The position numbers and the translations under genes were made by a program. 64,000 nucleotides of DNA from Escherichia phage RB43, in the sequence record NC_007023.1; one strand, written 5' to 3'. Of the stretch, positions 12,259 through 46,296 are shown one piece after another. The notes below the pieces were generated by a model that made no database searches, was not told the DNA's origin, and saw only the letters and a program-made list of their open reading frames with translations. Position 1 is the stretch's first letter. Every line of letters starts with the position of its first letter.

Positions 12259-14331
12259 ATGATCATGGATTATGAATCAATAATTGATGGTATTATGCAA
12301 GATTTTCAGCATCCGTGTGATGCTGAAATACCTGCTGGATCGTACAGGCGTATTATCTGGCAGGGACACACAGAAGATTACCCCGCTGTTGGGGTAGAAT
12401 GGGATACAGAAATCATTCCGATCGGGACGCATCTTTACACGCAATCCCCGTTTGGACAGAAAAGCGATCCGCTTCCGGTTGTCAACTCCCCAGGTACAGA
12501 TCCGGGTACTGGGGAAGCAACAGGGATTCTCGTTGCTAAAATTGGTTATTATTTCGCTACTCAACAAGAAATTGATGACTATATCACCTCTATCGGGGCT
12601 ACTAAGCTCGCAGGTAATGATTGGTATGGTGCGGATCTGACAAAAGCGAACCTGTTCAAAAACCCAGGCGAACTTGCAATGTACAAGGTCGAGAACTCAG
12701 GCGGTTATCTACTGACTTCTGGCCCACAATGCGATCAGCGTATCAGACAGGCGTATAATAGCGACACAGGCGCGTTTACAAGCGTTGATTACTATTGGAA
12801 TGGTAATCGTATTGCCTACATGAAACATGACGACACAGGGGCGCACAATTGCAAATACGTGGGTATGGTGGTTAACACCAACGCAGACACAAGCATTCCC
12901 CCTGTACCTCCGGCTATGCCGTCAATTTACGGGGCATTGCCTAGCGAAATTTCAATGATGCGCTCCGGTTTGGGTTGTCTTCCTGCAACGGTAGGTTTTG
13001 CGTACACGAATATCAGTGATGCAATGCTATCCGCATGGAACGAAACGCGCAAGTCGTTTAAGCTCGTGTTTGATATGCTTACGGGTATCACTAAAACGGG
13101 TTCCGGTGGTATCTCCACGATGTACGATGGTTTGTCTATCGCAATGGAGGAAATCACAGCGGGTGCTCTTGCGTTGTCACAGCAAGCATGGCAAGCCGCA
13201 ATTAAGGTGTTCAAAGATATTATGTCTTCTGCGTTAAACATCGTAGGTGGTGCGTGGAACATGATAATGAGTTTTTTACCAACTGTTACGATTCTGGGTG
13301 TTTCAATAAACATCTATGATCTGATTTTCGGTGATAACTCAGTGCAGACACTGAAAGATTCATTCCAGGCGATCATTGATGCTGGTACAGAAACCTATGA
13401 GAACGTCATAAACGCAATATACAGCGCTATAGGCAGTGCATACAATTATACCGTTGAATATGTCAAGGCTGGCGCTCGCGACCTCGTGGATGCTTGCAGT
13501 ACGCTTTTTGACTGGTGTATTACCATGTTTCAAAATGGTTGTGTTGCTCTGGTGGATCTGTATGGGCGAATAATGCAAATCTGGGCTATGCCTCCAACGG
13601 TTCCAAACCCTTTATGGGCTGCTGTTCTGGCTATCCGTAACATTATGATGCAGATCAAGCCGCTTGATGTGATCCTGGGTGGAAACTTCCCTGGGTTTAC
13701 GGCAATGGATTTGTACCAAATGGCACAGGAGAAGGTGAAAGAGTTTATCGATCAGTCGTATGCGCAAATACGCGTGTATTATGAACAGGTGAAGGATCTG
13801 ACTAGCACGTTGACTACACAGACACAAGAAAGGGATGCGATTAAACGCAAGTTCGATCAATACCTTAACTGGATGTGGGGCGCTGTTACAGATGCTGCTA
13901 CCGCTGCATATCAGGCTGCATTAGATGCTGCAAACGAGGCAATCGAGCAAACCAAAGCGCTTATCGCTGGCGTTAAAGCACAGATAGCCGCTCTACAGGA
14001 CGCGATGAAAGATACGTACAGCCTTGCGATGGAAGAACTTAAAAAACTTCCTTTGATGCAGCAGATTAATGAATTCTTAGGCTTCTGTGGGATTGCTTTT
14101 GATGATCTGCTGAAAACCTATGATAACGCGGTTACTGGGGCGAAATCATTATATAAAAACTTTGTTGACAGTTCCCGATCGTTTAAGGATACATGCAAAG
14201 TCATATATAACCAGATATGCACACTTGCTCTAAGTAAGGTGACTCAATACGTGAATAAACTGTTGTCTTTAATCGGACTCGCGATCACTTTTGCGTCAAT
14301 TAATATCTGCGTCCCTATGATTCAACTATAA
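12259..14331 (+). CDS. hypothetical 690-aa protein at the gp5-gp6 junction (helical, coiled-coil, hydrophobic segments)
   Basis: Long ORF tightly coupled to gp5 stop; no PAAR-like or other recognised motif. Confidence 0.6.
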   Translation: MIMDYESIIDGIMQDFQHPCDAEIPAGSYRRIIWQGHTEDYPAVGVEWDTEIIPIGTHLYTQSPFGQKSDPLPVVNSPGTDPGTGEATGILVAKIGYYFATQQEIDDYITSIGATKLAGNDWYGADLTKANLFKNPGELAMYKVENSGGYLLTSGPQCDQRIRQAYNSDTGAFTSVDYYWNGNRIAYMKHDDTGAHNCKYVGMVVNTNADTSIPPVPPAMPSIYGALPSEISMMRSGLGCLPATVGFAYTNISDAMLSAWNETRKSFKLVFDMLTGITKTGSGGISTMYDGLSIAMEEITAGALALSQQAWQAAIKVFKDIMSSALNIVGGAWNMIMSFLPTVTILGVSINIYDLIFGDNSVQTLKDSFQAIIDAGTETYENVINAIYSAIGSAYNYTVEYVKAGARDLVDACSTLFDWCITMFQNGCVALVDLYGRIMQIWAMPPTVPNPLWAAVLAIRNIMMQIKPLDVILGGNFPGFTAMDLYQMAQEKVKEFIDQSYAQIRVYYEQVKDLTSTLTTQTQERDAIKRKFDQYLNWMWGAVTDAATAAYQAALDAANEAIEQTKALIAGVKAQIAALQDAMKDTYSLAMEELKKLPLMQQINEFLGFCGIAFDDLLKTYDNAVTGAKSLYKNFVDSSRSFKDTCKVIYNQICTLALSKVTQYVNKLLSLIGLAITFASINICVPMIQL

Positions 14332-14334
14332 ATA
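14327..14334 (+). promoter_or_regulatory. T4-type late promoter box TATAAATA
   Basis: Exact TATAAATA about 20 nt upstream of gp6 ATG. Confidence 0.4.
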
Positions 14335-14354
14335 CCCGATAAAGAGGGGTAATA

Positions 14355-16269
14355 ATGGCTACCGTAAAGAAACAAATTAATCAGATCCCCGATATTTTTG
14401 TCGGGGCTACTTTTGATGAAATCAAATCGGAGTTTGATTAACTGGCTCCGAGGTCAGGACGAATTCAAAGATTATGATTTCTCTGGCTCGCGTATGAACG
14501 TGCTTGTTGACCTGCTGTCTTACGCGACATTGTATATTCAACAGATGGGTAACAGTGCTCTATTCGAATCATTTATTCGAACTGCGGCGCTTCGTAGTTC
14601 TGTTGTGCAACATGCTCAGGATTTTGGTTATATGCCGGATTCCCGTACTGCTGCAAACACTTCGATTCTGATTACAGCAAATAACCCACTGAACCCAACT
14701 TCAATTCGTATTCCTCGTGGTACGAAATTCATTGGTACAGTAAAAGATACGAACAGCTTCCCGTTTGTTGTGTCTGATGACGTTGTAATCGTTCGTGATA
14801 AAGATAACAACTATGTGTCGATGCTGAATATCGTACAGGGGCGTTTGGTTCGTACCGAAGTAATCTATGATGGTTCTACTATCCTGATCCGAGATCCGAA
14901 CATTGACCGTAGTCAGGTTCGAGTGACGATCAACGGCGCACAGTGGGACGATTGGACAAACGAAAGTATCGTTAACGCAACGGGCGCAAGTACCGTTTTC
15001 TATATGCGTGAAACGGTAGACGGACATACAGAGGTTTATTTCGGTGAAGGTGAGACAAGTCAACAGGTCGCGGGTGGTGCTCTTACCGCTGACTATATCG
15101 GGGGCTTGAAACCTGCAAACGGTTCTGTCGTTGTTATTGAATACATTTCAACCAACGGCGAAGAAGCAAACGGTGCTGAAAACTTTGTTTACGTGGATAC
15201 GTTGACAAACATCAGCATTACAAGTATTGTTGAGAACCCGACCAACTCTGCTGATTATGTCGGTGCTGATGGTGGTGGTGAACCGGAAGACATTGAACGA
15301 ATTCGAGAATTAGCCCCGATCATGCGTGAAACGCAGCGTCGTTGTGTTACTGCATCGGATTACGAATCATTCCTGTCGCATCGTTTCGGCTCTGTGATTC
15401 AGGCGGTTCAGTGCTTTACCGATAGTGAAAAACCTGGATATGCGTTCATCGCGGTTAAACCGAAATCAGGGTTGCGCCTAACCTCAGTACAGAAAGAGGA
15501 TATGCAAAACTATCTGGCTAAGTATAACCTTGCGACAATTACGCCGTCGATTCTCGACCCTAACTATCTGTATATCGTACAAAGCATTAAAGTCACGTAT
15601 GATATCAGTAAGTTAATCGAGTCAGAAGAATGGCTACGTGGTCAGGTTATCAATGAAATTGACAAGTATTACACTGATAACGTTGAAATTTTCAACAGAT
15701 CATTCAGTAAATCGAAGATGTTGACTTATGTCGATAACGCTGATGTGTCAATCATTGGTTCCTCTGCGACGATTAGCCTGTTGCGTGAACTGGATAACTA
15801 TTACAGTGCGCCGATGTCTGGTATTCACTTCTTAAACCAGGTTGCGTCAAGATCTGTTATTTCTAACGGGTTCAAATATACCAACGCAGATGATGATTCA
15901 TATGATGTGCGCTATGCGTCAACTGATATGGATACATCGACCGGACGTGCTAAGATTGTAATTGGCCCGTTTAAAGATGGTGATATTGCGATAACTCCGT
16001 ATGCTGGTAACGATTTTGATAAATACCCAGGGGTGACAGACAGAACGAAATACTATGAGGTTGGCTATATCGAACATTATAGCGATTTCATCAGCTTCGA
16101 TCTGGGTGTGCTTAACGTCCCAGCAGAACGCTTTAGCGCTGCATATATCGAACTGACTGCAAAACCATTGGAAGAAACCATTTTTACTCGTGATGGTTCT
16201 CTGATTGTATTTGAAAATGACCTTCGTCCTCAGTATACCACGCTGACGATGAATCCAATCAGTCAATAA
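14355..16269 (+). CDS. 6: baseplate wedge protein gp6 (needs +1 frame change near codon 26)
   Basis: ATG 14355 with AGAGGGG SD encodes MATVKKQINQIPDIFVGATFDEIK (matches T4 gp6 N-terminus) then TAA at 14439; rest of gp6 is in +1 frame from about 14434. Confidence 0.85.
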
Positions 16270-29261: not shown

Positions 29262-29876
29262 ATGATATACACAAAACTTAAAGAATGGTTGCCTCATGAT
29301 CTATACGTTGAGTATGTTGATATCATAACGGCTTCACCAAAAACAGAATACACAGAAAAACATCATATATTACCACGATCGCTATTTCCTGAATTTGAAA
29401 ACGACCCAGACAACTTAGTAGAACTTGATGTGATGAAGCATTTGATGGCTCATAGGACATTAGCAAAAACCAATGACCATAAAATGATTCTCGCGTTTTT
29501 CATGATGTTCACCTACGAACATAAACGTTATTCTACATTGTCAGAACAGGAACAACAATTTATTCTTGAAGAAAAGACAAAAGCCCGTGAAGCAATGCGT
29601 GTTGTTAAAAAAGAACAGATGAAAGGTAAATATGATGGTGAAAACAACCCATTTTACGGAAAACGACATACTGATGAATTTAAGAAAATGATGGGTTCTG
29701 TGCATAAAGGTAAGAAGTTATCACCAGAACATTTAGCAAATCTCGTTGCCGCACACAAAGGCAAAAAACGAGAAAAAGTAAAATGCCCCCATTGTGGGAT
29801 AATGTGCGCCGCTAATACAGCAAAGCGCTGGCACTTCGATAACTGTAAGTCTGGACTTGTCCAGCAGGGGGATTAG
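29262..29876 (+). CDS. free-standing HNH homing endonuclease (NUMOD3-type repeats)
   Basis: EKHHILPRS HNH core; NPFYGKRHTDEFKKMM and HKGKKLSPEH repeats; C-terminal CPHC; inserted between gp14 and gp15; ATG 29262 with AAGAGGA SD. Confidence 0.7.
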   Translation: MIYTKLKEWLPHDLYVEYVDIITASPKTEYTEKHHILPRSLFPEFENDPDNLVELDVMKHLMAHRTLAKTNDHKMILAFFMMFTYEHKRYSTLSEQEQQFILEEKTKAREAMRVVKKEQMKGKYDGENNPFYGKRHTDEFKKMMGSVHKGKKLSPEHLANLVAAHKGKKREKVKCPHCGIMCAANTAKRWHFDNCKSGLVQQGD

Positions 29877-45375: not shown

Positions 45376-46296
45376 ATGAAAATTGATTACGAATTGGTAG
45401 AAGGGTTCCGTGCTCTGCCTACTAAAGAACAGAAAGGCGCACTGGCTGACTACGCTCAAAGCACCTTTGAAGTAAAATTGAACAAACAAAAATCATTCGA
45501 TAACATGCTGGCTGATCTGGAAGCTGCTGTACCAGCGGAAGAAGAAAAACCGGAACTGCTGATTGATTCCCCAGAATCCGCGATCGTTTCGTACACTGGT
45601 AGCGTTGCAATGGATGAACCTGTTGTTAACGCTCCGAACATTCCTGATGTTGTTGTCGATGTGTCGCAGGACTTTATGGATTACGTCAAAGACGTTGCGC
45701 CGGAAGTGGCTGATCAGATTAAATTAGTCCCTGATGTTGTTGTCGATGTGTCGCAGGACTTTATGGATTACGTCAAAGACGTTGCGCCGGAAGTGGCTGA
45801 TCAGATTAAATTAGTCCCTGATGTTGTTGTCGATGTGTCGCAGGACTTTATGGATTACGTCAAAGACGTTGCGCCGGAAGTGGCTGATCAGATTAAATTA
45901 GTCCCTGATGTTGTTGTCGATGTGTCGCAGGACTTTATGGATTACGTCAAAGACGTTGCGCCGGAAGTGGCTGATCAGATTAAATTAGTCCCTGATGTTG
46001 TAGAAGCGTCTGTAACCGCTTCTGACGAGTCCAAAGCTGATATGGCATGGTTGGACGGGTTTAGCCCTACAATCGTTCTGATGGGGCGTAGCGCTCGTTC
46101 TAACGGCTATTATACGTGTCCCTGGTGGATCTACGATTGGATTAAGAAAAATCCAGATTGGTACAAAGATCCTGACCAGTGTCCACACTACAGCGCACGG
46201 GATACCCTGAAATCGCTGGTGTACTACATCAAACGTGATGGTCAAGTTACTGTGCGTGAAACGCGCAACAGCAGTTTCGATACCTTCAAATTTTAG
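45376..46296 (+). CDS. hypothetical protein with 4 identical 29-aa repeats and C-terminal PWWIYD domain
   Basis: 306-aa ORF; repeat PDVVVDVSQDFMDYVKDVAPEVADQIKLV x4; C-terminal YYTCPWWIYDWIKKNPDWY. Confidence 0.6.
   Translation: MKIDYELVEGFRALPTKEQKGALADYAQSTFEVKLNKQKSFDNMLADLEAAVPAEEEKPELLIDSPESAIVSYTGSVAMDEPVVNAPNIPDVVVDVSQDFMDYVKDVAPEVADQIKLVPDVVVDVSQDFMDYVKDVAPEVADQIKLVPDVVVDVSQDFMDYVKDVAPEVADQIKLVPDVVVDVSQDFMDYVKDVAPEVADQIKLVPDVVEASVTASDESKADMAWLDGFSPTIVLMGRSARSNGYYTCPWWIYDWIKKNPDWYKDPDQCPHYSARDTLKSLVYYIKRDGQVTVRETRNSSFDTFKF
45643..45990 (+). repeat. perfect tandem repeat, 4 x 87 bp (plus 11-bp partial fifth unit)
   Basis: Units at 45643, 45730, 45817, 45904 identical by eye; in-frame inside CDS. 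Confidence 0.9.

What the first reader, a model, noticed from the sequence alone, without database searches (positions are those of the whole stretch)
14424..14441. Essential baseplate gene gp6 needs a +1 frame change after codon 24
ATG 14355 with a good SD encodes MATVKKQINQIPDIFVGATFDEIK, which matches the T4 gp6 N-terminus, then reaches TAA at 14439. The rest of gp6 is in the +1 frame. Dropping one T from the TTT at 14433-14435 gives EIKSELINWLRGQ, colinear with T4 EIKQNLIEWLNGQ. Either a homopolymer indel error or, less likely, a programmed +1 shift.
Basis: seen in the sequence. Interest (0 to 1): 0.5.

Follow-up and report, generated by a model that had tools for sequence, protein, structure and literature searches.

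The report
One-base sequence error splitting gp6
The apparent frameshift near the start of the essential baseplate gene 6 of phage RB43 comes from a single extra G that only this sequence record carries, so it is almost certainly a data error rather than unusual biology.

Summary
The window is the original 180,500-bp record of coliphage RB43 (Pseudotevenvirus). The ORF break is real in the text: ATG 14355 opens a 28-codon ORF ending at TAA 14439-14441, and the rest of gp6 runs in the +1 frame to 16269.

The cause is not a T of the TTT run. It is an extra G at 14432 (TCG GA[G] TTT G). Two records of the re-sequenced RB43-GVA, plus GuL6 and Miller, read TCG GAT TTG ATT AAC (S-D-L-I-N) and encode an intact 637-aa gp6. 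All 60 listed near relatives are one base shorter than the window over the matched span. Deleting G 14432 gives a protein identical to RB43-GVA gp6, which aligns to T4 gp6 without a gap across the site.

The same 64 kb holds 22 more one-base indels against RB43-GVA. All 23 are private to the window and all lie in genes that are intact in RB43-GVA. No +1 slippery site is present, and no frameshift is conserved in any relative examined.

Verdict: this is a sequencing, cloning or assembly artefact. The deposited 617-aa gp6, which starts at ATG 14416, is a mis-annotation that follows from it. Interest is low.

The parts
14327..14334 (+). TATAAATA, which matches the T4-type late-promoter consensus. 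It overlaps the stop codon (14329-14331) of the upstream 690-aa ORF.
   Evidence: Read directly from the sequence. The consensus is from established knowledge of T4 late transcription. Function was not tested.
14344..14349 (+). Shine-Dalgarno GAGGGG, 5 nt upstream of the true gp6 start codon.
   Evidence: It is invariant in RB43-GVA, GuL6 and Miller. Miller annotates an RBS here.
14355..14431 (+). True 5' end of gene 6: codons 1-25 plus the first two bases of codon 26 (MATVKKQINQIPDIFVGATFDEIKS + GA-).
   Evidence: Identical to RB43-GVA and GuL6 apart from one synonymous site. Homologous to the T4 gp6 N-terminus.
14432..14432 (+). The extra G, the single base that breaks the frame. It is absent from RB43-GVA (two records), GuL6 and Miller, and every listed near relative is one base shorter over the matched span.
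   Evidence: Removing it gives a protein 100% identical to CCK74050.1.
14433..16269 (+). Remainder of gene 6: the third base of codon 26 through the stop at 16267-16269. In window numbering this is the +1 frame relative to ATG 14355.
   Evidence: All five gp6 Pfam domains are present.
14439..14441 (+). Premature TAA in frame 0. It is a consequence of the extra G and not a real stop codon of the gene.
14416..16269 (+). The CDS as deposited for this record: gp6 of 617 aa, AAX78728.1 / YP_239182.1, starting MKSNRSLINW. Its first six residues are out-of-frame sequence, and the 20-residue shortfall reflects the missing true N-terminus.
   Evidence: An exact-sequence look-up finds this product in NCBI, on one contig of 180,500 bp. 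Its Pfam Gp6-like_1st match lacks profile positions 1-6.

Best explanation
The G at window position 14432 is a spurious base in this particular database record, the first RB43 genome of 180,500 bp. That genome was obtained by plasmid-library shotgun sequencing with PCR gap closure. The base arose from a base-calling, cloning or assembly error. The phage's real gene 6 is one uninterrupted ORF, 14355-16269 minus that G. It encodes an ordinary 637-aa T4-type baseplate wedge protein gp6 and is translated conventionally from ATG 14355. No recoding takes place. The deposited 617-aa gp6 starting at ATG 14416 is a gene-finder's workaround for the error.

Shown: the base is private to this record, and removing it restores the conserved protein.
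Inferred: the base is an artefact rather than a mutation in the stock that was sequenced.
For: 1. Two records of the re-sequenced same phage (RB43-GVA, HE858210.2 and HE981739.1) are identical to the window across 14250-14750 except that they lack this G. They annotate one 1,914-nt CDS.
2. GuL6 (97% identity) and Miller (93%) also lack it. In all 60 listed megablast hits the matched span is exactly one base shorter than in the window.
3. Deleting G 14432 gives a 637-aa protein 100% identical to RB43-GVA gp6. That protein aligns to T4 gp6 without a gap across the site.
4. A tblastn search with the first 80 residues finds 1,865 phage records, and 1,729 of them cover at least 80% of the query as one place. 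All 40 listed rows are single in-frame pieces spanning residue 26, out to cyanophages.
5. Over the whole 64 kb the window differs from RB43-GVA by 23 one-base indels and 14 substitutions. All 23 indels are private to the window: GVA, GuL6 and Miller (wherever Miller aligns) share the other state. All 23 lie inside CDSs that are intact in RB43-GVA (GuL6 and, where alignable, Miller share the undisrupted sequence state at each site), including dNMP kinase, the gp18 sheath, gp24 and NAPRTase. The RB43-GVA lineage has 0 private indels and 2 private substitutions. This lopsided, indel-rich pattern is typical of record error and not of evolution.
6. RB43-GVA derives from the same original RB43 stock (PMC3157838).
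7. The first genome came from shotgun plasmid libraries plus PCR gap closure, and ORFs were called mainly with GeneMarkS (PMC1524935).
8. The exact +G sequence has no match in 2.9 million viral contigs. The two contigs that match the two-state pattern both carry the state without the G.
Against: - No raw reads or traces of the original project could be examined, so a genuine mutation in the DNA preparation that was sequenced is not formally excluded.
- This insertion, unlike most of the other 22 indels, does not extend a run of the same base. A simple homopolymer miscall therefore does not explain it. A cloning-selected mutation or a miscalled peak has to be assumed.
- RB43-GVA was propagated separately for about 20 years, so some real differences between the stocks do exist. 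Examples are the gp38 Q100R change and the two GVA-private substitutions.
Confidence: 0.93

Rival explanations
1. The extra G is a real mutation in the stock that was sequenced. gp6 is then made from an internal start (ATG 14416 or TTG 14398) as a protein lacking about the first 20 residues, and the phage tolerates this. Alternatively, the DNA came from a mixed population carrying a defective variant.
For: The +1 frame is open from 14365 and holds ATG 14416, which the depositors used. The stocks have separate histories. The insertion is not a homopolymer-length change.
Against: - ATG 14416 has only a GGGG about 11 nt upstream and TTG 14398 has no SD.
- The missing residues are conserved as far as cyanophage gp6: tblastn alignments begin at residues 4-12.
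- The missing residues run into the Pfam Gp6-like_1st helical domain, which starts at residue 19.
- In gp6-type wedge proteins the N-terminal helix-turn-helix builds the (gp6)2-gp7 core bundle (PMC10457771, for the XM1 homologue). Gene 6 is essential in T4 (established knowledge).
- A real origin would also have to apply to the 22 other private frameshifting indels in the same 64 kb, which is not credible for a viable phage.
Confidence: 0.05
2. This is a programmed +1 ribosomal frameshift. Ribosomes starting at ATG 14355 slip +1 within UCG GAG UUU GAU UAA, and full-length gp6 is made by recoding.
For: The short zero-frame ORF ends in a stop only 3 codons after the point where homology changes frame. 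A GGAG lies directly upstream of UUU.
Against: - No relative has the frameshift, and neither does the same phage re-sequenced. A programmed site would be conserved.
- There is no usable slippery codon. UUU to UUG mismatches at the third base and is followed by the ordinary codon GAU, not a stop or rare codon. GAU before UAA cannot re-pair on AUU (sequence reading).
- The GGAG abuts UUU with no spacer, unlike the 3-nt spacing in prfB (established knowledge), and its last G is the inserted base itself.
- Any product would carry SE(F/L)... in place of the conserved SDL.
Confidence: 0.01
3. The window is correct, and RB43-GVA and the relatives carry a one-base deletion error.
For: None beyond formal symmetry of a pairwise difference.
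Against: More than 60 records from many laboratories and platforms share the state without the G. That state gives an uninterrupted ORF colinear with T4 gp6.
Confidence: 0.01

Closest known systems
T4 gp6 baseplate wedge protein (PDB 5HX2/5IV5; Pfam Gp6-like_1st, Gp6_2nd, Gp6_C-I, C-II, C-III)
   Same: The repaired gene encodes a 637-aa protein that aligns end to end with T4 gp6 (E = 1.2e-245). It has all five gp6 domains. It sits in the conserved order gp53-gp5-(690-aa ORF)-gp6-gp7-gp8.
   Different: Nothing of note. As written in this record the gene carries a one-base insertion in codon 26.
Indel errors in early Sanger shotgun phage genomes, with the truncated-start annotations that follow from them
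   Same: The change is a single-base indel private to one record. It is absent on re-sequencing and is accompanied by many other private indels, mostly run-length changes. The gene finder picked the next ATG downstream.
   Different: This particular insertion is not a run-length change (GA[G]TTT).
prfB-type programmed +1 ribosomal frameshifting (CUU UGA C with an upstream SD-like element)
   Same: A short zero-frame ORF ends in a stop, the product continues in the +1 frame, and there is a GGAG nearby.
   Different: There is no re-pairing-competent slippery codon next to a slow codon, the SD spacing is wrong, and the frameshift is not conserved in any homologue.

Membership tests
T4 gp6 baseplate wedge protein family | Full-length sequence homology to T4 gp6 | tested here: met
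T4 gp6 baseplate wedge protein family | The gp6 domain set (N-terminal helical domain, domain II, C-terminal domains I-III) | tested here: met
   all five Pfam families score well above their cut-offs. The deposited 617-aa version loses profile positions 1-6 of the helical domain.
T4 gp6 baseplate wedge protein family | Position in the baseplate gene block between gp5 and gp7 | tested here: met
   colinear relatives annotate gp53, gp5, a hypothetical protein, gp6, gp7, gp8 and so on.
Programmed +1 ribosomal frameshift (prfB type) | A P-site codon whose tRNA can re-pair in the +1 frame, directly followed by a stop or rare codon | tested here: not met
   the zone is UCG GAG UUU GAU UAA. UUU is followed by GAU. 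GAU, which precedes UAA, cannot re-pair on AUU.
Programmed +1 ribosomal frameshift (prfB type) | An SD-like stimulator about 3 nt upstream of the shift codon | tested here: not met
   GGAG (14429-14432) abuts UUU with no spacer. Its last G is the base absent from all relatives.
Programmed +1 ribosomal frameshift (prfB type) | The frameshift is conserved among homologous genes | tested here: not met
   none of the 61 near relatives appears to have it (the 60 listed are each one base shorter than the window; the four aligned lack the G), and none was seen among the distant records examined. The same phage re-sequenced also lacks it.
Programmed +1 ribosomal frameshift (prfB type) | A trans-frame protein product | not testable with these tools
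   Needs mass spectrometry of virion gp6.
Sequence-record indel artefact | The state is private to one record and absent from an independent sequence of the same organism | tested here: met
Sequence-record indel artefact | The same record has an excess of other private indels that disrupt conserved genes | tested here: met
   23 of 23 indels are window-private and all lie in CDSs. RB43-GVA has no private indels.
Sequence-record indel artefact | Raw reads or traces do not support the base | not testable with these tools
   The original traces are not available here.

The most novel reading that the evidence does not exclude
The extra G is genuinely present in the RB43 stock that was sequenced. 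That stock nevertheless makes functional baseplates, either through low-level non-canonical +1 frameshifting at GAG-UUU-GAU-UAA or by using an N-terminally truncated gp6 started at ATG 14416. The second route would mean the conserved N-terminal strand and helix start of gp6 is dispensable for (gp6)2-gp7 core-bundle assembly.
Probability: 0.03. Interest if true: 0.45.

Novelty: not a real feature. Interest (0 to 1): 0.05.

Why it matters
The value is mainly data hygiene. The reference-style RB43 protein YP_239182.1 / AAX78728.1 (617 aa) has a wrong start and six wrong N-terminal residues. The correct gp6 is the 637-aa CCK74050.1. The same 64 kb of this record holds about 22 other private one-base indels and two private nonsense substitutions, which corrupt or locally scramble at least 15 other genes. 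Anyone using this record for comparative genomics, for structure modelling of the baseplate core bundle, or for scans for recoding events should use RB43-GVA instead. If the base were real it would be a modest curiosity about gp6 N-terminal function or +1 recoding, but the evidence is strongly against that.

Tried and rejected
It needs an extra substitution relative to RB43-GVA and gives E26 where the five intact relatives read all have D26.
- Programmed +1 frameshifting is rejected, because there is no slippery or slow-codon motif and no conservation.
- The terminator-like hairpin at 14387-14406 was considered as a frameshift stimulator and rejected. It lies upstream of the site and is equally present in relatives that have no frameshift.
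- Retrieving the original record's own annotation by accession (NC_007023, AY967407) failed, because it is not in the collections. The deposited product was recovered through an exact-sequence look-up instead.
- The exact pattern without the G could not be sent to the contig collections. A window-derived two-state pattern was used instead. It gave two viral contigs, both without the G, and no metagenome hits.
- The 695-aa proteins sharing gp6's 90% cluster were checked and are homologues of the upstream ORF, not of gp6.

Full report
**What is in the sequence.** Window 14355-14441 reads ATG GCT ACC ... AAA TCG GAG TTT GAT TAA. This encodes MATVKKQINQIPDIFVGATFDEIKSEFD followed by a stop at 14439-14441. 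The SD GAGGGG lies at 14344-14349, 5 nt upstream of the ATG. The +1 frame is open from 14365 and runs to the stop at 16267-16269. The ORF lister reports it from TTG 14398 as 623 aa.

**Identity of the window.** A megablast search with 14250-14750 finds 61 phage records. The best two are records of Pseudotevenvirus RB43 isolate RB43-GVA (HE858210.2 and HE981739.1), at 99.8% identity. Next come Buttiauxella phage GuL6 (97%), Citrobacter phages KKP_3664 and Miller (95% and 93%), and many Enterobacter, Cronobacter and Klebsiella pseudotevenviruses (about 85%).

An exact-sequence look-up shows that the product starting at ATG 14416 (617 aa, MKSNRSLINW...) is AAX78728.1 / YP_239182.1, 'gp6 baseplate wedge subunit [Escherichia phage RB43]', on a contig of 180,500 bp. 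The window is therefore the first published RB43 genome. Its annotators, who used GeneMarkS (PMC1524935), started gp6 downstream of the break.

**What the extra base is.** I aligned window 14340-14480 with both RB43-GVA records, GuL6 and Miller. There is one gap column: the window has G at 14432 (TCGGA[G]TTTGATT) where all four others have TCGGATTTGATT or the near-identical TCCGATTTGATT and TCCGATTTAATT.
- The relatives read TCG GAT TTG ATT AAC, which is S-D-L-I-N, and annotate one 1,914-nt CDS.
- Deleting G 14432 from the window gives a 637-aa protein 100% identical to RB43-GVA CCK74050.1.
RB43-GVA, GuL6, Maroon, the leB-group phages and a further Logan-derived sequence all have D there.
- The error sits in codon 26, not after codon 24, and it is not a homopolymer-length change.

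**Is the frameshift found anywhere else?** In all 60 listed megablast hits the matched span in the record is exactly one base shorter than in the window, for example 501 against 500, 498 against 497, 484 against 483 and 378 against 377.

A tblastn search with the first 80 residues of intact gp6 against 50,697 phage records finds 1,865 records. Of these, 1,729 cover at least 80% of the query as one place. All 40 listed rows, from RB43-like phages through T4 (66% identity) to cyanophages (36-42%), are a single in-frame piece spanning residue 26.

The exact +G sequence has no match in 2.9 million viral contigs. A window-derived pattern that allows either state matched two contigs, both 32 nt long and therefore without the G. 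A metagenome scan found nothing.

**The record as a whole.** I aligned the entire 64-kb window to RB43-GVA. They differ by 23 one-base indels, 14 substitutions and a tandem-repeat copy-number difference. Each difference was polarised against GuL6 and Miller.
- All 23 indels are private to the window. RB43-GVA agrees with the outgroups every time.
- 12 of the 14 substitutions are also private to the window.
- RB43-GVA has no private indels and 2 private substitutions.
- All 23 indels lie inside CDSs that are intact in RB43-GVA.

The affected CDSs include dNMP kinase (three insertions over 16 codons), the gp18 tail sheath (three insertions over about 22 codons), gp24 (codon 430 of 432), NAPRTase (three deletions), NudE and several small ORFs. 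Most of the indels lengthen or shorten a run of the same base.

RB43-GVA descends from the same original RB43 stock (PMC3157838). One lineage showing 23 frameshifting indels in coding sequence and the other showing none is not a plausible evolutionary outcome for a viable lytic phage. It is the expected signature of base-calling, cloning or assembly errors in an early plasmid-shotgun and PCR-gap-closure project (PMC1524935).

**Why gp6 was not caught (inference).** Four of the five multi-indel clusters are frame-neutral (+3, +3, -3 and 0). The uncompensated indels lie in small hypothetical ORFs or very near gene ends. This looks like survivorship under ORF-guided finishing, in which errors that visibly broke a large known gene were fixed and the rest were not. 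The gp6 error lies only 26 codons into the gene and is followed by a usable ATG, so a near-full-length 617-aa gp6 could still be called.

**Function of the affected segment.** Intact gp6 aligns to T4 gp6 (PDB 5HX2, 5IV5 and others), residues 6-637 to 12-660, with E = 1.2e-245 and no gap at the site. Pfam places the 'Gp6-like_1st' helical domain at residues 19-92. The break is therefore inside this domain, and the deposited 617-aa protein loses its first six profile positions. In gp6-type wedge proteins the N-terminal helix-turn-helix forms the (gp6)2-gp7 core bundle (PMC10457771, describing the XM1 homologue and citing T4). Gene 6 is essential in T4 (established knowledge). A truncated gp6 is therefore unlikely to work. 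In addition, ATG 14416 has only a poorly spaced GGGG upstream and TTG 14398 has no SD.

**Programmed +1 frameshifting.** Homology confines any shift to UCG GAG UUU GAU UAA.
- UUU to UUG mismatches at the third base and is followed by GAU, an ordinary codon.
- GAU, the codon before UAA, cannot re-pair on AUU.
- The only SD-like element, GGAG, abuts UUU with no spacer, and it is completed by the very base that relatives lack.

With no conservation in any relative as well, this reading is rejected.

**Conclusion.** The feature is an artefact of this record. The real gene 6 of RB43 is 14355-16269 minus G 14432, and it encodes an ordinary 637-aa gp6. I put the artefact at about 0.93, a real mutation in the sequenced stock at about 0.05, and recoding at about 0.01. 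The decisive tests are re-sequencing of the original stock across 14380-14480, inspection of the original traces, and mass-spectrometric detection of the junction peptide SDLINWLR.

Noticed in passing
window 1055; 3000/3007; 3395; 6548/6575/6596; 33493/33499/33559; 42326; 50893; 53775; 54519; 55042; 55869/55876/55887; 62106/62130; 63180; 63803: There are 22 further one-base indels relative to RB43-GVA. All are private to the window (GuL6 and Miller agree with GVA) and all lie inside CDSs that are intact in RB43-GVA, including dNMP kinase, the gp18 sheath, gp24, NAPRTase and NudE. Four of the five multi-indel clusters are frame-neutral and scramble 3-22 codons locally.
   Followed up: yes
window 46765 and 47537: Two window-private substitutions create stop codons. 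TTA becomes TAA at codon 4 of the CDS matching GVA 142080-142649. TAT becomes TAG at codon 62 of the hoc-like capsid decoration gene (GVA 142677-143180). These are probably further record errors, but a real amber mutation in a non-essential gene is not excluded.
   Followed up: partly
window 45643-46001: A perfect 87-bp (29-codon) tandem repeat is present in 4.1 copies in the window but as a single unit in RB43-GVA and GuL6. It is in frame within the gene annotated in relatives as minor capsid protein / prohead protease inhibitor. It is either a recent real amplification or an assembly artefact.
   Followed up: partly
window 14327-14334: TATAAATA, the T4 late-promoter consensus, sits directly upstream of the gp6 SD and overlaps the stop codon of the upstream ORF.
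   Followed up: no
window 14387-14406: An 8-bp-stem hairpin, CCCCGATATTTTTGTCGGGG followed by a T-rich tail, was flagged as terminator-like. It lies inside the first 20 codons of gp6 and is invariant in RB43-GVA, GuL6 and Miller. Its significance is unknown, and it may simply reflect the conserved peptide IPDIFVG.
   Followed up: no
window 12259-14331: A 690-aa ORF between gp5 and gp6 has no Pfam match. It is conserved (81% identity) in related phages, where it is variously named hypothetical protein, 'baseplate hub structural protein' or 'tail length tape measure protein'. Its 695-aa homologues are lumped into the same 90% protein cluster as gp6 despite having no similarity to it, which is a database quirk.
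   Followed up: partly
window 20377 and 29807: These are the only two differences where RB43-GVA, not the window, carries the derived state: Q instead of R in gp8, and a TGA stop instead of TGC at 29807. They are candidates for genuine mutations of the GVA lineage.
   Followed up: partly
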